DNA of 64,000 bases, taken from positions 9,760 to 73,759 of the IMG/VR virus record IMGVR_UViG_3300009171_000001. The stretch is one strand, 5' to 3'. This document shows, in pieces, positions 13,168 through 42,986 of the stretch. The stretch comes from a virus. The notes beneath the pieces are model-generated. The model had not been told where the DNA came from, did not search any database, and worked only from the letters and a program-made list of their open reading frames with translations. The translations under genes were made by a program, and so were the position numbers. Position 1 is the first letter of the stretch. Each line of letters opens with the position of its first letter.

Positions 13168-13378
13168 ATATCTAATTATATCCTATATATCCTATATATT
13201 TATACCCTGATTAGGGATTTTTAGAATATACCGTTGAAACCTGAAAAAGTCAATAGGCAGGTATAGATTTATAGACGGAAAAAAGTAAAATTTCTTAAGA
13301 TTTTTTGGCCTTAAAATCTTGGTTTTTAGCGTAAAAACGGGGTTTTCCAAGATTTTTTCGATATACCCTAAAATTTTC

Positions 13379-13406
13379 TAAAGATTTCTCTCGCCTTAGC
13401 CGATAA
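13379..13406 (+). promoter_or_regulatory. Putative early promoter, sigma28-like TAAAG-N15-GCCGATAA
   Basis: TAAAGATT at 13379 and GCCGATAA at 13399-13406, at the head of the rightward early region. Confidence 0.5.
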
Positions 13407-13429
13407 CGTATAGTATAGTATATATAGTA

Positions 13430-13770
13430 TAGGCTATAAAGTATAGCCTAAGCATATTTGACAAGTTTATATCGGAGGCCGGGAAGGGCGGATTTTACTA
13501 CGGGGTAAGATTACGCGGTCGGCCTAAAATACCGGAAGGAATCTAAGTCGATACGCTACGGCTTACCTGGAAGTCCCGCTCCCGAAGAGGGCAGGCGGGT
13601 ATCTAAGGAAACTACGGGTGGACGGCTTCCAGCTCTATTTCAACCACGCTTCGGCCTCAGGCCCGATAGGGGTTAAAATAGTATCAAGGCTGGCGGCGGG
13701 GCAGGGCGATATATCGTAAGGATTTACGGGCAAGCGGGCGATACCAAGCAGATTTATCTGCCGGCAAAAG
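13430..13770 (+). ncRNA. Putative structured leader RNA of the early transcript
   Basis: ORF-free GC-rich island; hairpin 13430-13450; boxA-like GCATATTTGACAA at 13452; pairings GAGGCCG(13475)/CGGCCTC(13652), CTGGAAGTC(13567)/GGCTTCCAG(13624), CCCGC/GCGGG. Confidence 0.55.
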
Positions 13771-13850
13771 TCCACAATATAATATAAGATATATATACTT
13801 TATATATATACTTATATTACCAATTCTCCCTTAGAAAGAAAATTAGATTA

Positions 13851-13913
13851 GGGCCTAATCGGATTACCCGACAAAATATATCGGGTATAGCGGTTCAACT
13901 CCGCTATAGGCTC
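13851..13913 (+). ncRNA. tRNA-mimic element T1 (acceptor stem + T-arm, no D/anticodon arms)
   Basis: GGGCCTA/TAGGCTC stem; T-arm TAGCGG-TTCAACT-CCGCTA; internal TACCCGA/TCGGGTA hairpin. Confidence 0.7.
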
Positions 13914-13926
13914 TTGTGTTTGTAAG

Positions 13927-13969
13927 TAAAATATCTAATAATTATCTTATTTAAGGAGAACAAAAAATG
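13927..13969 (+). promoter_or_regulatory. Conserved early-gene leader/RBS (TAAAATATCTAATAATTATCTTATTTAAGGAGAACAAAAATG)
   Basis: Near-identical copies start at about 13927, 14310, 14684, 15150, 16122, 16474 and 18688; RBS-only copies near 18990 and 19917. Confidence 0.85.
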
Positions 13970-14233
13970 AAAACCGAAACGAAAACCGAAACGAAAATTA
14001 CGAACGCCGAAAAAAGGGTAATCTTATCCGCTATTCGGGAAAAGATAAAAATCGCCTCCGATATTCTTTCCGTCGCCACCGTCGAGGAAAATTACGAGGA
14101 TGAGGTAGTTATCGATGCGATAACGGACGCGGCGTTAATCATCGAAATCGCGTATCTTAATTCGCTCGATGACGGCGGAGCGAGGATTCTTTACCCGCCG
14201 AAAGACGGGGAGGCCTACCGGAACGGGGAATAA
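13967..14233 (+). CDS. Early hypothetical protein
   Basis: 88 aa; conserved leader/RBS. Confidence 0.8.
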   Translation: MKTETKTETKITNAEKRVILSAIREKIKIASDILSVATVEENYEDEVVIDAITDAALIIEIAYLNSLDDGGARILYPPKDGEAYRNGE

Positions 14234-14234
14234 A

Positions 14235-14310
14235 AGTTGAAATACCCGATAATCTATATCGGGTATATATAGGTGAAAAGCGATAACCTATACTGATGAG
14301 ACTAATCGCT
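14235..14310 (+). ncRNA. Hammerhead ribozyme, type II (HH1)
   Basis: AGTT-GAAA-stem III (TACCCGAT/ATCGGGTA)-TA-stem I (TATAGGT/ACCTATA)-CTGATGA-GACT; loop AGCGAT pairs with 3' ATCGCT; predicted cut after 14267. Confidence 0.92.
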
Positions 14311-14347
14311 AAAATATCTATTTAATATCTATTTAAGGAGAACAAAA

Positions 14348-14623
14348 ATGAGAACGTCGAGAAAAGCTCCGATTATTCAAGTCCGAACTTTGGCCGAAAG
14401 GATAATCGAAATTAGCGAAAATCCACTAAGTGAAGCAGATTTTGAAGGGAAGACGGGACGCTCTCGGAGCGAGGTATTACTATTTTTAGCGAAGACTATC
14501 CTAATGGAATTAGAATCCACCGCTAAGTCTCGCCTCTTATATATACCCGCTAAGTCAAGCATTGCCGCTAAGTCAAGCATTGCCGCTAAGTCAAGCATTG
14601 CCGCTAAGTCAAGCATCCGCTAA
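14348..14623 (+). CDS. Early hypothetical protein with C-terminal AAKSSI repeats
   Basis: 91 aa; conserved leader/RBS. Confidence 0.75.
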   Translation: MRTSRKAPIIQVRTLAERIIEISENPLSEADFEGKTGRSRSEVLLFLAKTILMELESTAKSRLLYIPAKSSIAAKSSIAAKSSIAAKSSIR

Positions 14624-14626
14624 GTC
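14547..14626 (+). repeat. 18-bp tandem repeat CCGCTAAGTCAAGCATTG (~4 copies)
   Basis: Directly visible in the sequence. Confidence 0.9.
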
Positions 14627-14676
14627 TCCATCTGAAATAGAGGTCAGATTTATAGGTTCGACTCCTATGGAGACTT
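14622..14676 (+). ncRNA. tRNA-mimic element T2
   Basis: AAGTCTCC/GGAGACTT stem; T-arm ATAGG-TTCGACT-CCTAT; internal ATCTGA/TCAGAT hairpin. Confidence 0.72.
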
Positions 14677-14722
14677 TTGTAAGTAAAATATCTAATAATT
14701 ATCTTATTTAAGGAGAACAAAA

Positions 14723-15058
14723 ATGAAGACCAAAATAAAAGACACATTAAGACCATTCACTAAACAGGATGATCGCGTTTTTTGCAGCACTAAAAAACCT
14801 TCGGATGGCTCAACACCACTTATCGGCAGGGTCAAGATAACAAATTGGCCTGATTCCGATAAAACTGATGGGTGGGATGACTTTGTGACTGTAATAGTGG
14901 ATGGCCTCGGAGTATGTTTGTGTGGGACAGATGGTGTATTAACAAGAGCCATCCCAGATTTTGAAGATGCTAAGGCCATTGCATATTACATTCTCTCCAC
15001 TCCCACAGATTACATCCAACTGGTAAATAGCGGCAAGTGGGAATCCATCAATCTGTAG
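14723..15058 (+). CDS. Early hypothetical protein
   Basis: 111 aa; conserved leader/RBS. Confidence 0.8.
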   Translation: MKTKIKDTLRPFTKQDDRVFCSTKKPSDGSTPLIGRVKITNWPDSDKTDGWDDFVTVIVDGLGVCLCGTDGVLTRAIPDFEDAKAIAYYILSTPTDYIQLVNSGKWESINL

Positions 15059-15074
15059 TAAAAACCGCCCGCTA

Positions 15075-15150
15075 AGTCGAAATACCCGATATAGATTATC
15101 GGGTATATATAGGTCAAAGCGATGAACCTATACTGATGAGACTAATCGCT
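15075..15150 (+). ncRNA. Hammerhead ribozyme, type II (HH2)
   Basis: AGTC-GAAA-stem III-TA-stem I-CTGATGA(15133-15139)-GACT plus pseudoknot; predicted cut after 15107. Confidence 0.94.
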
Positions 15151-15187
15151 AAAATATCTAATAATTATCTTATTAAGGAGAACAAAA

Positions 15188-16048
15188 ATGAAGACAGTAA
15201 AAACAAACCGATTAAGTGAACGTGCTATGCTGGTACACCTGCGCATTTTGAGATATGCCGGTCATACCAAAGACAATGAAGTAGTTTTGGACGTTTGTTC
15301 GCAAAAACAAGCCACTCAGGACAGCGGTGGATGGTACACCTATTTGATTCCAAAAAAGGAATTGAGTGGTGTTAATCACGCTGCTTCCCGATGTCGCGAA
15401 ATCCACAATCACTATACTTTTCCATGGCTGGATGGTGGGATGCGGATATTACCATCTTTGTATTTCTTCAAATACCGCGAAGCCATCGCTACGGCCATCG
15501 CTGAGTATGATGAGGCAGTTGAGATATTTCTAACCAGATACCCAGACATTGTAACTAAGTCCAAGGAACGTCTGGGTCAACTGAACAGAATAATGCCATC
15601 GGTGAAGGAGATTCAAAGCAAGTTTGCAGTTTCACACAGCATATTTCCACTGCCTGAGACGGAGGACTTCCGTGTCAAATTGGCGGATGAGGAAAAGGAG
15701 TCTGTGAAAGCAACAATCACAGACAGTCTCAATGCCACAATGACGGCTGCGGTCAGTGCCGTTTGGGGCAAATTAGCCAAGTCTGTGGAAAAGATTGCTG
15801 CAGCCACAAAGGACAAAGACAAACAATTTCGCAATGTCCTTTTCACAAACTTGGTTCAACTGTGTGAGGATTTGCCTCAACTGAATTTTACTAATGACGT
15901 CAAATTAGAAGAGGTGAGACAGCACATCTTAACTACGCTGGCTAAATTCAATCCAGATGATGTTCGTGAAGACAGTCAAAAACGCAAGGCAGCTGCCAAA
16001 GCAGCCAAAGACGTTTTGAACAAGATGAAAGATTATGCAACTACATAG
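15188..16048 (+). CDS. Conserved phage early protein (DUF3150-like)
   Basis: LSERAMLVHLRI...HYTFPW.DGG.RILP pattern, of the kind often found beside AAA/VWA pairs. Confidence 0.55.
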   Translation: MKTVKTNRLSERAMLVHLRILRYAGHTKDNEVVLDVCSQKQATQDSGGWYTYLIPKKELSGVNHAASRCREIHNHYTFPWLDGGMRILPSLYFFKYREAIATAIAEYDEAVEIFLTRYPDIVTKSKERLGQLNRIMPSVKEIQSKFAVSHSIFPLPETEDFRVKLADEEKESVKATITDSLNATMTAAVSAVWGKLAKSVEKIAAATKDKDKQFRNVLFTNLVQLCEDLPQLNFTNDVKLEEVRQHILTTLAKFNPDDVREDSQKRKAAAKAAKDVLNKMKDYATT

Positions 16049-16058
16049 CGTGTTCTCC

Positions 16059-16108
16059 GACCACCGCAGGTTTCAGGCCGTTAATGGGTTCAAACCCCAT
16101 CGGTGGTC
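16059..16108 (+). ncRNA. tRNA-mimic element T3
   Basis: GACCACCG/CGGTGGTC stem; T-arm ATGGG-TTCAAAC-CCCAT. Confidence 0.72.
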
Positions 16109-16160
16109 TTGTGTTTGTATGTAAAATATCTAATAATTATCTTATTTAAGGAGAACAAAA

Positions 16161-16400
16161 ATGAACCTGCAAGAAATTAAAAGCCGAGTTGAGGCACTAA
16201 AAGCCTCTCTGAAAATTGATGCTGTCGATGCCATTTATGAAGACAGCTTTGCGCTCGGCTATTTTGGCAATCAAATCCAGCATGAAATTGCCGGCCACGA
16301 AGGTTGCTTTGCCTATGCTCGTACATCGAGCAAAGCTCGCATCGAGGCGATTGTAAACATGCTTGTGAATGAAGGAGAATGTTTGGCCAAAAAAGACTAA
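16161..16400 (+). CDS. Early hypothetical protein
   Basis: 79 aa; conserved leader/RBS. Confidence 0.8.
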   Translation: MNLQEIKSRVEALKASLKIDAVDAIYEDSFALGYFGNQIQHEIAGHEGCFAYARTSSKARIEAIVNMLVNEGECLAKKD

Positions 16401-16474
16401 GTCGAAATACCCGATATAGAATATCGGGTATCTACGGATAAAAGCGATAATCCGTATCGAAAAGACTAATCGCT
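16400..16474 (+). ncRNA. Hammerhead ribozyme type II with variant core UCGAAAA (HH3)
   Basis: AGTC-GAAA-stem III-TC-stem I (TACGGAT/ATCCGTA)-TCGAAAA(16457-16463)-GACT plus AGCGAT/ATCGCT pseudoknot; predicted cut after 16432. Confidence 0.8.
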
Positions 16475-16511
16475 AAAATATCTAATAAATATCTTAAAAA
16501 GGAGAACAAAA

Positions 16512-17498
16512 ATGAATGCTAAACAAATGAAAGTTGTACTGACTAAGTGCATCAAAAACGGTTTGCCCGTGCTTATCAAAGGAGCGCCAGGTGTTGGCAA
16601 GTCTGATGTCGTGACGCAAGTAGCTGCTGAATTGAAGATGGATTTAATCATCAGCCATCCAGTGGTAAGTGACCCGACAGACTTCAAAGGTCTGCCAGGG
16701 ATTGTGGATGGCAAAGCTGAATTTTTGCCGTTTGGTGATTTGCGCTCGCTAATTCAAGCCAAAAAGCCAACAATTGCTTTCTTGGATGATTTGGGCCAAG
16801 CACCAGCCGCAGTACAAGCTGCAGCAATGCAACTAATCCTTGCTCGCCGAGTGAATGGACATAAAGTGAGTGACAAGGTGGTATTTATTGCCGCCACTAA
16901 TCGACGGCAAGACAGGGCTGGTGTAACAGGCATCCTTGAACCTGTTAAGTCCAGATTTGCCACCATCATTGAGTTGACACCAGATTTAGACAGCTGGTCT
17001 GAGTGGGCGTTGGCTAATGATGTTCCACCGCAGATTTTGGGCTTTTTGAATTTTCGCCCAAATTTGCTTTGCACCAATGAAGCAACAGCCGATATTGTGA
17101 ACCATCCGTGCCCACGTACTTGGGCTTTTGCAAGCAAATTAATCCAAATTGATTTGACGGATATACAAAGTCTGGCTGGAGCTTTGGGCGAAGGTTGTGC
17201 GGTTGAGTTTGTGGGATTTATGCGAGTGTTCGACAGTTTGCCGAACATTCAAACAATCCTATTAGACCCAGAAAATACCACCATCCCAAATGAACCTGCC
17301 GCTATGTATGCTGTGGTGTCCGCCTTGGTTAATCGAGTGTCCGACAAGACATTCAAAGCCATAGTTACATATGCTGACCGTTTGCCAGCTGATTTTGGCA
17401 CGCTGCTAATCCGTGATTGTGTTAAGTCCAATCCAAACATTCAAAACACTGCTGCTTTTGGTCAATGGGCCATCAAGCACGCTAATTTGCTAATATGA
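16512..17498 (+). CDS. MoxR-like AAA+ ATPase
   Basis: GAPGVGKS Walker A, FLDDLGQA Walker B, AATNR, SRF, PRTW. Confidence 0.9.
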   Translation: MNAKQMKVVLTKCIKNGLPVLIKGAPGVGKSDVVTQVAAELKMDLIISHPVVSDPTDFKGLPGIVDGKAEFLPFGDLRSLIQAKKPTIAFLDDLGQAPAAVQAAAMQLILARRVNGHKVSDKVVFIAATNRRQDRAGVTGILEPVKSRFATIIELTPDLDSWSEWALANDVPPQILGFLNFRPNLLCTNEATADIVNHPCPRTWAFASKLIQIDLTDIQSLAGALGEGCAVEFVGFMRVFDSLPNIQTILLDPENTTIPNEPAAMYAVVSALVNRVSDKTFKAIVTYADRLPADFGTLLIRDCVKSNPNIQNTAAFGQWAIKHANLLI

Positions 17499-17506
17499 GG
17501 TGTACA

Positions 17507-18613
17507 ATGAATGCTATGGAAATTATGACTAAGGCCAGAACTCACTTGTTGCTTGACCATCCATTTTTTGGATGCTTGGCCATGCGATTAAGTCTGGTTG
17601 AGGACAATCAGTTTGAAACAGCGGGGACAGATGGCAAGGAATTGAGATTCAATTCACAATTCATTCAATCATTACGATTGAATCAAGTGGTTGGATTGTT
17701 TGCTCACGAGGTTATGCACTTGGCTTTGGGGCACAACTGGCGGCAAGGCACACGTGAACATGAACGGTGGAACAACGCTGGCGATTACGCCATCAATTCC
17801 AATCTTGTCCGCACTGGGATTCACCTGCCGGATGGTGCTTTGATTGCTTATCAGTTTGACAAAATGAGTGCAGAAGAAATTTACACTTATCTTCCGTCCA
17901 ATCCAAACCAAAATCAAAGCTCCGGCTCAAGCCAAACGTCTGATCCAGGTGGTTGCGGGGCAGTATTACCCACACCCAATGATTCTCAACTGGATGAGAC
18001 TAAGGCAGAGTGGAAGACAGCAGTGGCTCAAGCCATACAATTTGCTGGCATCGGTAATTTGCCTGCGGATTTGGCTCGCCAATTACAATCGGTGATTGAC
18101 CCATCGTTGCCATGGTATGTATTGCTGCGTGATTTTGTAGAACGCTCAGCGCGCAACGATTTCACTTGGCAAAGGCCAAATGCTCGCTACATCAATCAAG
18201 GCATTGTTCTGCCAGGATTGATTAGTGAAGAGTTGCCTGAAGTGATTGTGGCTGTTGATACCAGTGGCTCAATTAGTCAAGCCCAATTGGATTCTTTTGC
18301 GGCTGAGGCCAGTGCGGTGCTTAGTGCTTACAAAACAACAATCCGTGTGATATATTGCGACAACGAAGTACAAGGCGAGCAAATCTATCAAACAGATGAT
18401 TTGCCCATCCACTTATCACCGAAAGGTGGTGGCGGGACAAAGTTTGACCCTGTGTTCCGCTATGTAAACGAGAATGGATATACACCATCCTGCGTGATAT
18501 ATCTGACGGATTTGTTGGGGCCCACACCCCAATGTGAGCCAGAATGCCCTGTACTTTGGGTAAGTACAAAGCCAGGCAAAATGCCCTTTGGTACAGTGAT
18601 TCAACTGAATTGA
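17507..18613 (+). CDS. Metallopeptidase (HEXXH)-VWA domain protein (DUF2201-like)
   Basis: AHEVMH, DYAIN, VAVDTSGS MIDAS, GGGGT.F.PVF, YLTD. Confidence 0.9.
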   Translation: MNAMEIMTKARTHLLLDHPFFGCLAMRLSLVEDNQFETAGTDGKELRFNSQFIQSLRLNQVVGLFAHEVMHLALGHNWRQGTREHERWNNAGDYAINSNLVRTGIHLPDGALIAYQFDKMSAEEIYTYLPSNPNQNQSSGSSQTSDPGGCGAVLPTPNDSQLDETKAEWKTAVAQAIQFAGIGNLPADLARQLQSVIDPSLPWYVLLRDFVERSARNDFTWQRPNARYINQGIVLPGLISEELPEVIVAVDTSGSISQAQLDSFAAEASAVLSAYKTTIRVIYCDNEVQGEQIYQTDDLPIHLSPKGGGGTKFDPVFRYVNENGYTPSCVIYLTDLLGPTPQCEPECPVLWVSTKPGKMPFGTVIQLN

Positions 18614-18614
18614 A

Positions 18615-18688
18615 TGTCGAAATACCCGATAATCTATATCGGGTATATATAGGCTAAGGCGATAACCTATACTGATGAGACAATCGCT
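18615..18688 (+). ncRNA. Hammerhead ribozyme, type II (HH4)
   Basis: TGTC-GAAA-stem III-TA-stem I (TATAGG/CCTATA)-CTGATGA(18672-18678)-GACA with compensatory stem II; predicted cut after 18647. Confidence 0.93.
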
Positions 18689-18724
18689 AAAATATCTAAT
18701 AAATATCTTAAAAGGAGAACAAAA

Positions 18725-18931
18725 ATGGAACTATGGACTAAAACACGATGGACTCGCTTGCGAAAGAAATCGAAAATAATTCAAACGGGTGGGATTGAAG
18801 GTTCACAAATTTACAATCTCATAATCGAAACACCCGAAGGCAAACACCTGGCTGGAGACTTGATATGGGATGGGTGGGCAGAGCTTGTGCAAGTCTGGAC
18901 GCCAACACCACAAGAATACAAGCAAACGTAA
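18725..18931 (+). CDS. Early hypothetical protein
   Basis: 68 aa; conserved leader/RBS. Confidence 0.75.
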   Translation: MELWTKTRWTRLRKKSKIIQTGGIEGSQIYNLIIETPEGKHLAGDLIWDGWAELVQVWTPTPQEYKQT

Positions 18932-18949
18932 GGAGAACCAAAATACATC

Positions 18950-18979
18950 CGCTAAGGCTCGCTAAGGCTCGCTAAGGCT
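18950..18979 (+). repeat. 10-bp tandem repeat CGCTAAGGCT x3
   Basis: Directly visible in the intergenic spacer. Confidence 0.85.
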
Positions 18980-19002
18980 AACATTTTTTAAGGAGAACAA
19001 AA

Positions 19003-27457: not shown

Positions 27458-28009
27458 ATGGCAAAGGTAATGAAAGTAGAAAAGAGTAAGGCTGTGGCTT
27501 TGTTTGTGGCGATGGGCTTCAAGACTGCCGGAAAGTGGGATGCTGAAAAGCTGACCGAAAAGATTAACCTGATTGAGGATGCCCCAGAAAAGCCGCTGGA
27601 GGATGAGGCTTTGGATGGCCTTTTGGATGAAATCCTGGGGGCAGCGGGGGACATCGTGGTTGTGGACGACGAGGCCGAGGGTGACGAAGAGGAAGAGCCT
27701 GAGGCCGATGATGAGGATGAAAAGCCCAAAAAGGGCAAAAAGGACAAAAAGGCAAAGGCAACCAAAAAGCCTGTGAAGAAGAACCTGAACCGAATCCACG
27801 CCGTCACGGACATTTTGAGAAAGCTGAAGAAGAGTGGTGCTACAGCTGAGGACATCATCAAAGCAGCGGATGATGCCTATGTTGCAGATGGTGGCAACAG
27901 CAATCTGAAAGAAGCCGGATACAGCACTCACAGGGTCATTCAGGTAATGGAACGGCTTGGGATGGTGTCTGTGGAAGATGGTAAAGTCCGTCCGGTCAAT
28001 CCTGTCTAA
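27458..28009 (+). CDS. Acidic/basic low-complexity protein, possibly DNA-binding
   Basis: 183 aa; D/E-rich then K-rich linker; wHTH-like C-terminus. Confidence 0.7.
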   Translation: MAKVMKVEKSKAVALFVAMGFKTAGKWDAEKLTEKINLIEDAPEKPLEDEALDGLLDEILGAAGDIVVVDDEAEGDEEEEPEADDEDEKPKKGKKDKKAKATKKPVKKNLNRIHAVTDILRKLKKSGATAEDIIKAADDAYVADGGNSNLKEAGYSTHRVIQVMERLGMVSVEDGKVRPVNPV

Positions 28010-41840: not shown

Positions 41841-42986
41841 ATGAGCAGACAAAGTAAGAAACGTGAAAAGAGAAGTGTGGCCGGAGCAACGGCTAAAAGG
41901 AGGGAGAAGGCTGGACAGGGATTTTCTGATATGTTCAACTTTCCCAAAGGGACGGAAACCTTTGGTATAGATTCCTCCGGTGTCAAACGTATCGACATTG
42001 TGCCTTACGTGGTAGGCAAAGGCAACCCCAATGCGGAAGATGGGGCTTTTTATTGGGAGAGGACGTTCTTTGCTCATCGTGGCATCGGGGTGAACAACGA
42101 TTGGGTTGTGTGTCCTGCCCGCACGGTTAAAAAGCCTTGTCCAATTTGTGAGTTGGCTGCCAAGATGCAAAAGGATGCTGATGCTGATGAGGATGCAGTC
42201 AAAGCTCTCTCCCCCAGCAAACGCATGCTTGTAAATGTACGCGACCTCAAGAAAGACCCTGACAAAGTAAAAGTCTGGCATGTATCTCATTGGTACTTTG
42301 GCAAGGCTCTTGATGAAGCACTCGCATCGGCGTATGAAGACCACGAAGACAACATGGACAATTTCTGCGACCCTGAAGGTGGTCATTATCTCAAGTGTAT
42401 GGCTGAGACTGGTTGGGAGGGGCAAGGTTATCAAATTGCCCGTGTGGACTTCGTTCCGCGTAAAGAGGATTTGACTGATGAAATCCTTGAAAAAGCAGTA
42501 TGCCTCGATGACGCACTCAATATCAAGAGCTATGAGGAAATAAAAGAAATGCTTTATGCGGGGGAAGATGAAGATGAAAAGCCGGCAAAAAAGTCCAAAT
42601 CTAAATCGGACGATGATGATGAGGACGATGAGGATGAGGATGAAAAGCCGGCAAAAAAGTCCAAATCTAAATCCAAATCAAAGGATGATGATGATGAAGA
42701 TGATGACGAAGAGGCCGATGATGATGATGATGATGATGATGAAGATGATGATGATGATGATGATGAAGAGGCCGATGATGATGATGAAGAGGCCGATGAC
42801 GAGGACGATGAGGATGAAAAGCCGGCAAAAAAGCCCAAGCCCAAGCCCAAATCCAAATCCAAATCTAAATCTAAATTAGATGATGATGAGGAGGAGGAGG
42901 AAGACGAGGAGGACGACGATACCGAAGACGAGGACGATGATTGGGATGATGATGAGGATGAAAAGCCCAAAAAGGGCAAAAAGTAA
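41841..42986 (+). CDS. Single-stranded DNA-binding protein (gp32-like) with very long acidic tail
   Basis: H...VCP...CPICE zinc motif; about 140-aa D/E tail with KPAKKSK repeats. Confidence 0.8.
   Translation: MSRQSKKREKRSVAGATAKRREKAGQGFSDMFNFPKGTETFGIDSSGVKRIDIVPYVVGKGNPNAEDGAFYWERTFFAHRGIGVNNDWVVCPARTVKKPCPICELAAKMQKDADADEDAVKALSPSKRMLVNVRDLKKDPDKVKVWHVSHWYFGKALDEALASAYEDHEDNMDNFCDPEGGHYLKCMAETGWEGQGYQIARVDFVPRKEDLTDEILEKAVCLDDALNIKSYEEIKEMLYAGEDEDEKPAKKSKSKSDDDDEDDEDEDEKPAKKSKSKSKSKDDDDEDDDEEADDDDDDDDEDDDDDDDEEADDDDEEADDEDDEDEKPAKKPKPKPKSKSKSKSKLDDDEEEEEDEEDDDTEDEDDDWDDDEDEKPKKGKK

What the first reader, a model, noticed from the sequence alone, without database searches (positions are those of the whole stretch)
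14235..18688. Four paralogous type II hammerheads with internal covariation
Stem II varies AGTT/GACT, AGTC/GACT and TGTC/GACA; stem I varies TATAGGT/ACCTATA versus TACGGAT/ATCCGTA. Loops diverge while the GAAA, the UH site and the loop I/3'-tail pseudoknot (AGCGAT:ATCGCT) are kept. Compensatory changes inside one genome indicate selection on RNA structure. After cleavage, stem I and the pseudoknot would stay on the 5' end of the downstream mRNA as a protective cap (inference).
Basis: partly seen in the sequence, partly recalled or inferred. Interest (0 to 1): 0.8.

Follow-up and report, generated by a model that had tools for sequence, protein, structure and literature searches.

The report
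Phage hammerhead ribozymes between early genes
Four self-cutting "hammerhead" RNA motifs, three textbook and one with an unusual core, sit between the first genes of an uncultured phage and most likely chop one long message into single-gene pieces; this layout has been known in phages since 2011, so these are new examples, set in an unusually regular arrangement.

Summary
Four type II hammerheads lie on the + strand at 14235-14310, 15075-15150, 16400-16474 and 18615-18688. Each has open stem II, GAAA, a 10-11 bp stem III, a UH cleavage site, a 6-7 bp stem I and a 6-bp loop I/3'-tail pseudoknot. Three carry the CUGAUGA core. The third (HH3) carries UCGAAAA (U3-A8, C4), so its activity is uncertain.

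A lenient descriptor expects 0.007 such motifs per window and finds 3. Rfam finds none. A model built only from 68 other phage hammerheads scores them at 55-72 bits.

Within this genome the covariation is thinner than claimed. All three double compensations are in HH3's stem I. The stem II "covariation" is a wobble plus a deletion-dependent pair. Two metagenome relatives add a compensated stem III pair and a re-paired pseudoknot.

This is the class of Perreault et al. 2011, and this scan has met such phage arrays before on other DNA. Three features are less ordinary:
- The hammerheads alternate with three tRNA-like mini-helices.
- Every element precedes one near-identical leader.
- A relative keeps the elements but has swapped the genes between them.

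No RNA data were available, so cleavage is untested.

The parts
14235..14310 (+). HH1. Type II hammerhead with canonical core CUGAUGA (14293-14299). Predicted cut 14267|14268. Stem II closes with a G10.1-U11.1 wobble. Pseudoknot 14279-14284 with 14305-14310.
   Evidence: (66.7 bits with R2)
15075..15150 (+). HH2. Type II hammerhead with canonical core (15133-15139). Predicted cut 15107|15108. Its stem III hairpin is the exact reverse complement of the HH1/HH4 hairpin.
   Evidence: the lowest-energy fold is the three-way junction, z -4.2; 71.5 bits; 52.6 bits without the tail
16400..16474 (+). HH3. Hammerhead-shaped element with variant core UCGAAAA (16457-16463; U3, C4, A7, A8). H17 is C16432. 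Stem I is fully compensated (UACGGAU/AUCCGUA). All stems and the pseudoknot are intact. Activity is uncertain.
   Evidence: 54.6 bits; 35.7 bits without the tail
18615..18688 (+). HH4. Type II hammerhead with canonical core (18672-18678). Predicted cut 18647|18648. Stem I is 6 bp. The pseudoknot GGCGAU/AUCGCU has one G-U pair.
   Evidence: (65.6 bits)
14311..14350 (+). Conserved AU-rich leader plus Shine-Dalgarno sequence and start codon (AAAAUAUCU..AAGGAGAACAAAAAUG). It follows every hammerhead and every tRNA-like element. Other copies end at 13969, 14725, 15190, 16163, 16514 and 18727.
   Evidence: 10 matches against 0.12 expected; families D3, D5, D9; SD-AUG region 0.67-0.78 unpaired
13850..13914 (+). 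TL1 (context). tRNA-like mini-helix with an acceptor-like stem, a middle hairpin that shares the hammerhead stem III sequence, and a T arm GG-UUCAACU-CC.
   Evidence: (z -3.8)
14622..14676 (+). TL2 (context). tRNA-like mini-helix with T arm AUAGG-UUCGACU-CCUAU. One T-stem pair is compensated in L210.
16059..16108 (+). TL3 (context). tRNA-like mini-helix with T arm AUGGG-UUCAAAC-CCCAU. In L209 three T-stem pairs and two acceptor pairs are changed on both sides.
   Evidence: (mascRNA-like shape, not significant)

Best explanation
These are genuine type II hammerhead self-cleaving ribozymes of the phage class that is stabilised by a loop I/3'-tail pseudoknot. They sit in the gaps between the first genes of the rightward early/replication operon of a 73.8-kb phage with direct terminal repeats.

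Inferred mechanism:
- The operon is transcribed as one long RNA. No terminator-like site lies at any of the elements, and no promoter match recurs at the leaders.
- As each hammerhead emerges it folds and cuts itself between stem III and stem I.
- The upstream message then ends in the 10-11 bp stem III hairpin with a 2',3'-cyclic phosphate.
- The downstream message begins with a 5'-OH on the first paired base of stem I, with the pseudoknot still formed. Next comes a standard unstructured AU-rich leader and a strong ribosome binding site.

The net effect would be to separate and insulate the cistrons. Each would get the same 5' UTR and hairpin-protected ends, whatever gene lies upstream.

HH3 has two core deviations, and each is separately seen in natural hammerheads. 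It is either a slow cutter or a non-cutting structural copy, at about even odds.

My sub-probabilities:
- HH2 and HH4 self-cleave: about 0.9.
- HH1 self-cleaves: about 0.8.
- HH3 cleaves at a useful rate: about 0.5.
- Separating and insulating the cistrons is the selected function: about 0.6.
For: Shown by the sequence and by computation:
- Every defining hammerhead feature is in register in HH1, HH2 and HH4.
- The lowest-energy folds of HH2 and HH3 give the three-way junction. Across the four copies z is -2.7 to -4.2.
- 99% of cells are paired, against 22-40% when partners are slid.
- The descriptor finds 3, against 0.007 expected.
- Model R1, built from the window and L210 copies, recovers 68 hammerheads in other phage contigs.
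- Model R2, built only from those 68, scores the window copies at 54.6-71.5 bits and hits nothing else in 64 kb. Without the 3' tail the scores are 52.6 bits for HH2 and 35.7 bits for HH3.

From relatives:
- L210 keeps the array.
- L209 has the pseudoknot re-paired as UAGCAG/CUGCUA.
- In 141 distinct phage type II hammerheads, 55% have a pseudoknot of at least 5 bp. The swapped-tail control gives 17%.

Geometry of the products:
- The 5' end of the 3' product is paired, and the ribosome binding region is 0.67-0.78 unpaired.
- The stem III hairpin is -14 to -16 kcal/mol.

Operon context:
- The neighbouring genes are an AAA ATPase, DUF2201, a sigma-like protein, an SNF2 helicase, a primase and a DnaB-like protein. 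They run divergently from the terminase and portal genes.
- No terminator-like site lies at the elements.

Established knowledge (Perreault et al. 2011, PMC3088659):
- Type II hammerheads use this pseudoknot for fast cleavage.
- Tandem prophage hammerheads cut about 2-kb polycistronic transcripts in vitro.
- U3-A8 covaries in natural hammerheads.

On C4: CCGAUGA cores occur in 20 well-formed phage hammerheads of several lineages.
Against: - No cleavage was observed here.
- No Rfam hammerhead model reports any copy, even at E <= 10 on a 106-nt query.
- R2 is not fully independent, because its training hits were selected and aligned with a window-derived model.
- HH1 has a wobble at the most conserved stem II pair.
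- The HH3 core combination was found in none of 99 pattern matches elsewhere.
- The ten stem III pairs are invariant among the four window copies, and the loop flips orientation. That would also fit a DNA palindrome.
- More distant relatives of the operon (about 40-45% protein identity) have no hammerheads at the equivalent gaps. The elements are therefore dispensable for this gene module.
- The stabilising or insulating role is an inference. The biological role of phage hammerheads is still called unresolved in the 2019 review PMC6765202.
Confidence: 0.7

Rival explanations
1. The hammerheads do cut, but they are selected as parts of a portable intergenic cassette (processing element plus leader). 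The cassette's sequence identity would provide homology for swapping genes between related phages. The effect on mRNA fate would be secondary.
For: Between the window and L210 the elements and leaders are 88-99% identical. Most ORFs between them have no detectable DNA similarity or only 66% (gene 5 is the exception, at about 94%), and L210 has two extra genes inserted between the same elements. Stem III hairpin types and stem I/loop I types recombine in different combinations. The same hairpin occurs in TL1 and in the hammerheads.
Against: Homology for recombination does not need an intact catalytic core, three helices or a pseudoknot. The compensated pseudoknot in L209 and the compensated stems point to selection on RNA function. 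The two roles are not exclusive.
Confidence: 0.12
2. Cleavage is used for differential decay, not protection. Cutting would uncouple neighbouring cistrons so that some fragments are rapidly degraded. That would set unequal or timed expression levels, with HH3 as a deliberately weak cutter that keeps gene 5 and the ATPase/DUF2201 pair partly linked.
For: Core strength is graded across the array: two canonical copies, one with a G-U at 10.1-11.1, and one with a U3-A8/C4 core. Stop codons lie within 0-2 nt of stem II, or overlap it, in three of four copies, so terminating ribosomes could interfere with folding. Perreault 2011 and PMC6765202 both raise different stabilities or regulated cleavage as possibilities.
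Against: Both products carry strong terminal hairpins, and all downstream messages get the same leader. That looks like equalising, not differentiating. No ligand-binding or switch-like extension is present.
Confidence: 0.13
3. The repeats act at the DNA level, with the palindrome TACCCGAT..ATCGGGTA as an operator or other protein site. On this view the hammerhead likeness is incidental or vestigial.
For: The stem III arms are invariant in five places (four hammerheads plus TL1). The loop is found in both orientations, as expected for a palindromic DNA site.
Against: A palindrome does not explain several features being in exact register: GAAA, the UH site, stem I with three compensated pairs, CUGAUGA, stem II and a 6-bp pseudoknot. 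Chance expectation is 0.007 per window. L210 shows compensated changes inside the hairpin. All copies are on the coding strand.
Confidence: 0.03
4. RNA released between two hammerhead cuts carries a 5'-OH and a 2',3'-cyclic phosphate, plus the two halves of a hammerhead. It could be ligated into circular mRNA.
For: The end chemistry suits RtcB-type or ribozyme-mediated ligation. The copies are nearly identical, so the halves of neighbouring hammerheads could pair.
Against: tRNA-like elements lie between successive hammerheads and would probably be cut as well. Perreault 2011 looked for circular or spliced products from tandem prophage hammerheads and found none. Nothing in the sequence calls for circles.
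Confidence: 0.02

Closest known systems
Type II hammerhead ribozymes with a loop I/3'-tail pseudoknot (Perreault et al. 2011, PLoS Comput Biol, PMC3088659; Rfam Hammerhead_II RF02276)
   Same: The topology is the same: stems I and III are capped and stem II is open. The core, the A15.1-U16.1 pair, the short 3-4 bp stem II and the 6-bp pseudoknot just 3' of stem II also match. So does the position directly upstream of a ribosome binding site in phage DNA. More than 119 viral contigs carry the same skeleton.
   Different: These copies are AU-rich, with a long (10-11 bp) stem III and a UA cleavage dinucleotide. A 45-nt conserved leader lies before the start codon, where many others have 10-25 nt. 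The Rfam model does not report them at any threshold tried.
Tandem hammerheads flanking single genes in prophages (Clostridium scindens, Azorhizobium caulinodans, Agrobacterium tumefaciens; Perreault et al. 2011)
   Same: Several hammerheads lie in successive intergenic gaps of one phage transcription unit. The proposed role is cutting a long transcript into gene-length mRNAs, and cleavage was shown in vitro for those arrays.
   Different: Here the hammerheads alternate with tRNA-like mini-helices in equivalent positions, and every element is followed by the same leader. I found no paper describing that combination. That was a limited library search, not proof of absence.
Natural core variants of hammerheads: U3-A8 covariation (Perreault et al. 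2011) and C4 cores in phage hammerheads
   Same: HH3 carries U3-A8, which keeps the C3-G8 tertiary pair. It also carries C4, which occurs in 20 well-formed phage hammerheads of several lineages.
   Different: The combination U3+C4+A8 was found only in this phage and its relative L210.
Engineered ribozyme insulators and tRNA-based transcript processing (RiboJ; polycistronic tRNA-gRNA arrays).
   Same: The logic is the same. A self-cleaving hammerhead or a tRNA removes the upstream context, so that each downstream unit starts with a defined 5' end and a standard ribosome binding region.
   Different: Those are synthetic designs. This would be a natural phage counterpart, and its function is untested.
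tRNA punctuation and plant mitochondrial t-elements (PMC1920247); mascRNA
   Same: tRNA-shaped structures inside longer transcripts serve as RNase P/Z cutting signals. The three TL elements share the acceptor/T-arm stack and the GG-UUCRANN-CC T loop.
   Different: The TL elements have no D arm and no CCA. ARAGORN does not call them and the Rfam tRNA model does not report them. Processing by RNase P is an inference.

Membership tests
Hammerhead ribozyme (catalytic core) | C3 U4 G5 A6 N7 G8 A9 between stems I and II | tested here: met
   CUGAUGA is present in HH1, HH2 and HH4. It is NOT met in HH3, which reads UCGAAAA: U3-A8 keeps the tertiary pair, and C4 deviates.
Hammerhead ribozyme (catalytic core) | G12 A13 A14 between stems II and III, A15.1-U16.1 closing stem III, and H17 (not G) at the cleavage site | tested here: met
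   GAAA and U16.1 are invariant in all four copies. H17 is A, A, C and A.
Hammerhead ribozyme (catalytic core) | Three helices meeting at the core, with paired N10.1-N11.1 and N1.1-N2.1 | tested here: met
   Stems are 6-7 bp (I), 3-4 bp (II) and 10-11 bp (III). 99% of cells are paired, against 22-40% when slid. The 10.1-11.1 pair is G-C in three copies and G-U in HH1. The 1.1-2.1 pair is U-A.
Hammerhead ribozyme (catalytic core) | Mg-dependent self-cleavage giving 2',3'-cyclic phosphate and 5'-OH ends | not testable with these tools
   No RNA-holding sequencing run was listed. A bench assay is needed.
Type II hammerhead with pseudoknot (Perreault 2011 class) | Stems I and III closed by loops, stem II open | tested here: met
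Type II hammerhead with pseudoknot (Perreault 2011 class) | Pseudoknot of at least 4 bp between loop I and the nucleotides just 3' of stem II | tested here: met
   The pseudoknot is 6 bp in all four copies. In L209 it is re-paired with a different sequence. The feature is class-wide: 55% against 17% in the control.
Rfam Hammerhead_II (RF02276) | Score at or above the family's gathering threshold (37 bits) | tested here: not met
   There was no match at the gathering threshold or at E <= 10, even on a 106-nt query. A model built from 68 other phage type II hammerheads does score the window copies at 55-72 bits. The miss therefore reflects the Rfam model's reach, not a missing feature.
tRNA (for the neighbouring TL elements) | Cloverleaf with D arm, anticodon arm, T arm and acceptor stem, detectable by ARAGORN or Rfam RF00005 | tested here: not met
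   ARAGORN reports 0 genes. There was no RF00005 match at E <= 10 or E <= 5. Only the acceptor/T-arm stack and the T-loop motif are present.

The most novel reading that the evidence does not exclude
The hammerheads are half of a two-mode punctuation system. In the order TL1-HH1-TL2-HH2-TL3-HH3-HH4, every early cistron would be freed either by a self-cleaving ribozyme or by a tRNA mimic cut by host RNase P/Z. Each cistron is then handed the same leader. That would be a natural counterpart of engineered ribozyme or tRNA insulators. The conserved element-plus-leader cassettes would also act as joints for swapping genes between phages. HH3 (U3-A8, C4) would be a tuned weak cutter or a non-cutter.
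Probability: 0.35. Interest if true: 0.75.

Novelty: new member of a known kind. Interest (0 to 1): 0.5.

Why it matters
What bacterial and phage hammerheads are for has been open since 2011. A 2019 review still calls most genome-encoded ribozymes functional orphans (PMC6765202).

This array is a clean test bed for that question, for three reasons:
- Seven processing elements of two kinds sit in equivalent positions.
- Each is followed by the same leader.
- One natural core variant serves as a built-in comparison.

Dead-core and pseudoknot mutants in a reporter operon could directly measure whether cleavage insulates translation and protects mRNA ends.

The case also shows that current Rfam hammerhead models miss AU-rich phage members completely. 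Counts of phage hammerheads are therefore underestimates.

Tried and rejected
- Rfam at the gathering threshold and at E-value thresholds gave no hammerhead match. The only near-threshold hits were freshwater-2 (26.5 and 31.8 bits, against a gathering score of 49.9) and mascRNA (19.6 bits). Neither is significant.
- blastn of 13800-19000 against GenBank phages found no match.
- The search for related loci with the DUF2201 protein found no match.
- A stem III pattern in viral contigs found only unrelated terminator hairpins.
- The leader pattern in viral contigs gave single, scattered hits with no related array.
- The large protein alignment A2 was too divergent to search with.
- The protein scan of genome contigs found nothing, so no host was identified.
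- No RNA holder was listed by the look-up of sequencing runs, so no reads were laid.
- The idea that each leader is a promoter was rejected. No sigma-70-like match recurs at the leaders, and the hammerhead-type leaders lack a -35 element.
- The upstream GC-rich region 13455-13780 as a structured RNA: the fold z-score is only -1.2 and there is no Rfam hit.
- I first read HH3 as a dead copy. I softened that after checking U3-A8 in the literature and C4 by pattern scans.
- CGCTAAG enrichment (14 against 2.1 expected, all on the + strand) is largely explained by two tandem repeats and in-frame Ala-Lys codons.

Full report
**Where this is.** The window is bases 9760-73759 of a 73,759-bp IMG/VR virus record with 123-bp direct terminal repeats. 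Portal, large terminase and small terminase genes run leftward up to 13167. From about 13850 a rightward block begins. It encodes small proteins of unknown function, a DUF3150-like protein, an AAA ATPase, a DUF2201 metallopeptidase/VWA protein, a sigma-like protein, an SNF2 helicase, a Toprim primase and a DnaB-like helicase. The finding lies in the first 5 kb of this rightward early/replication block.

**The observation.** Reading the sequence and aligning the four copies shows the full type II hammerhead plan in each:
- a 5' strand of stem II
- G12-A13-A14
- a 10-11 bp stem III closed by a 3-5 nt loop and starting with A15.1-U16.1
- an unpaired H17
- a 6-7 bp stem I closed by a 10-12 nt loop
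- seven core nucleotides
- the 3' strand of stem II
- after 0-1 nt, a hexamer (AUCGCU) complementary to AGCGAU (GGCGAU in HH4) in loop I

Coordinates are given under 'parts' and were checked by script. The lowest-energy folds of HH2 and HH3 are exactly the three-way junction. HH4's lowest-energy fold shows the pseudoknot helix instead. Across the four copies z is -2.7 to -4.2 against shuffles.

A deliberately lenient descriptor finds three canonical copies, where 300 simulated sequences average 0.007. A descriptor that ignores the core sequence finds exactly the four copies on the + strand, plus one weak hit on the other strand. The motifs are real and not due to chance.

**What the covariation shows.** Within the window, 99% of cells pair, against 22-40% when partners are slid. 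Only three pairs change on both sides, and all three are in HH3's stem I.

The stem II claim is weak. HH1 has a C-to-U change that gives a G10.1-U11.1 wobble. HH4's outer U-A pair exists only because one U is deleted after GAC. The HH4-type copies of the relative L210 have A opposite A at that place.

The case for selection on structure gets better with relatives. I found them through the DUF3150-like gene that lies between HH2 and TL3.
- Metagenome contig L210 (3650 nt) carries the same array. It adds a U-A to C-G compensation in stem III.
- Contig L209 carries a hammerhead cut off by the contig end. Its loop I and tail read UAGCAG/CUGCUA in place of AGCGAU/AUCGCU, again 6 bp. Two pairs are changed on both sides and one new pair is added.

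**Membership.** No Rfam hammerhead model reports these elements, not even at E <= 10 on a 106-nt query. I therefore tested membership in other ways.
Nearly all of these have the same plan, and many have a pseudoknot followed by a ribosome binding site.
- Model R1, built from the window and L210 copies, recovers 68 hammerheads in those contigs, including ones the pattern had not selected.
- Model R2, built only from those 68, scores HH2, HH1 and HH4 at 71.5, 66.7 and 65.6 bits and HH3 at 54.6 bits. It hits nothing else in the window.
- The training hits were chosen with a window-derived model, so the 3' tail columns are biased. Without the tail, HH2 still scores 52.6 bits and HH3 35.7 bits.
- Among 141 distinct phage type II hammerheads, 55% have a loop I/tail helix of at least 5 bp. 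When tails are swapped the figure is 17%.

These elements are therefore AU-rich members of the class described by Perreault et al. 2011 (PMC3088659). That paper reports three things that bear on this case:
- a pseudoknot needed for fast cleavage
- tandem hammerheads flanking single prophage genes, which cut about 2-kb transcripts in vitro
- natural U3-A8 covariation

**HH3.** Its core UCGAAAA differs from CUGAUGA at C3U, U4C, U7A (a free position) and G8A. U3-A8 preserves the C3-G8 tertiary pair and is a published natural variant.

I tested C4 myself. The skeleton with a CCGANGA core gave 100 distinct pattern matches. Twenty of them pass the stem test and look like ordinary pseudoknotted phage hammerheads of several unrelated sequence lineages. 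The skeleton with UCGANAA gave 99 matches, none of them well formed.

So each deviation is tolerated in nature, but the combination is so far private to this phage and L210. In both, it precedes the ATPase gene. That segment is 98.5% identical between the two, so its conservation says little.

All changes in HH3 fall in the core (4), in stem I (6, all compensated), at H17 (1) or in the stem III loop. No helix is broken. That pattern looks maintained, not decaying. I put active cleavage at about even odds.

**Surroundings.** The hammerheads are not alone. Three 50-65 nt elements at 13850-13914, 14622-14676 and 16059-16108 have three parts:
- an 8-bp acceptor-like stem
- a middle hairpin (weak in TL3)
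- a T arm with the invariant GG-UUCRANN-CC motif, running straight into the 3' acceptor strand

Three of the four matches to that motif in the window are these elements. They are not tRNA genes. Relatives show compensated T-stem and acceptor pairs. The middle hairpin of TL1 shares the stem III arms of the hammerheads, and differs at one base from the reverse complement of L210's stem III hairpin.

The order is TL1, HH1, TL2, HH2, TL3, HH3, HH4, and L210 keeps that order. Every element is followed by a near-identical AU-rich leader ending in AAGGAGAACAAAAAUG (10 matches against 0.12 expected). No terminator-like site lies at the elements, and no promoter-like site recurs at the leaders.

Other first-stage notes on this genome describe the same alternation. 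I had reached it independently and only partly tested it.

**How it most likely works.** The early block is transcribed as one RNA, and each hammerhead cuts between stem III and stem I.

The geometry is computed. The upstream product ends in the stem III hairpin, at -14 to -16 kcal/mol, with a one-nucleotide overhang. The downstream product starts with a paired nucleotide and keeps both pseudoknot strands. Its ribosome binding region is 67-78% unpaired.

The end chemistry (2',3'-cyclic phosphate and 5'-OH) follows from hammerhead chemistry. The claim that these ends slow exonucleases and 5'-end-dependent endonucleases, and that the standard leader equalises translation, is inference.

**Mosaic exchange.** Between the window and L210 the elements and leaders are 88-99% identical. 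Most ORFs between them are unrelated or only 66% identical, and two extra genes are inserted in L210. The cassettes may therefore also serve as recombination joints. More distant relatives (40-45% protein identity) have other hairpins, or a true tRNA gene, and no hammerheads. Hammerheads occur in only 3 of 33 metagenome relatives.

**Verdict.** The class and its tandem layout are already known, and this scan has met phage hammerhead arrays several times on other DNA. The added value has three parts:
- the regular alternation with tRNA mimics in front of one shared leader
- the U3-A8/C4 variant
- the complete miss by Rfam

Cleavage itself remains untested.

Noticed in passing
window 13850-13914, 14622-14676, 16059-16108: Three tRNA-like mini-helices (acceptor stem, hairpin, T arm with GG-UUCRANN-CC; no D arm, no CCA) alternate with the hammerheads. 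Each precedes the same leader. T-stem and acceptor pairs are compensated in L209 and L210.
   Followed up: partly
window 14243-14265, 15083-15105, 18623-18645, 13865-13887: The stem III hairpin of HH1 and HH4 is the exact reverse complement of HH2's: same arms, loop flipped. The same arms form the middle hairpin of TL1. TL1's 5' half (UCGGAUUACCCGA..) resembles the hammerhead 5' half (UCGAAAUACCCGA..). This hints that TL1 and the hammerhead cassettes share ancestry.
   Followed up: partly
window 13376-13972 versus L210 1-588; window 14616-14730, 15072-15238, 15991-16367, 16397-16790 versus L210: Cassette mosaicism. Processing elements and leaders are 88-99% identical between this phage and metagenome contig L210. 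Most genes between them are unrelated or much more diverged, and L210 has two extra genes.
   Followed up: partly
window 13455-13780: A GC-rich stretch of about 320 nt without a convincing ORF lies just upstream of TL1. It is about 88% conserved in L210. It has no Rfam match and its fold is no more stable than shuffles (z -1.2). Its function is unknown.
   Followed up: partly
window 14547-14616 and 18948-18978: Two tandem repeats share the word CGCTAAG: CCGCTAAGTCAAGCATTG x4 inside or at the end of gene 2, and CGCTAAGGCT x3 in the gap before the sigma-like gene. The word also precedes HH2 and TL2. There are 14 copies, all on the + strand, against 2.1 expected. The excess is partly explained by the repeats and by Ala-Lys codons.
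   Followed up: partly
window 16410-16514; L210 483-584: Rfam freshwater-2 (RF02980) gives sub-threshold matches (26.5 and 31.8 bits, gathering score 49.9) over HH3+leader and TL1+leader. Its consensus ends in the same AAGGAGAAAACAAAUG. That motif may be a related phage leader cassette.
   Followed up: no
L204 5664-5736: A distant relative of the operon carries a genuine tRNA gene (64.9 bits) about 1.4 kb downstream of the DUF3150-like gene. It lies in the region where this phage has tRNA mimics.
   Followed up: no
window 27665-27751 and 42556-42983: Two long acidic/lysine-rich coding repeats (GAT/GAG-rich followed by AAAAAG-rich) lie in two separate genes.
   Followed up: no
L027, L089, L028, L104 (other viral contigs): Other uncultured phages carry 3-6 type II hammerheads within 1-3 kb, each just before a ribosome binding site. 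Dense arrays are therefore common in IMG/VR.
   Followed up: no
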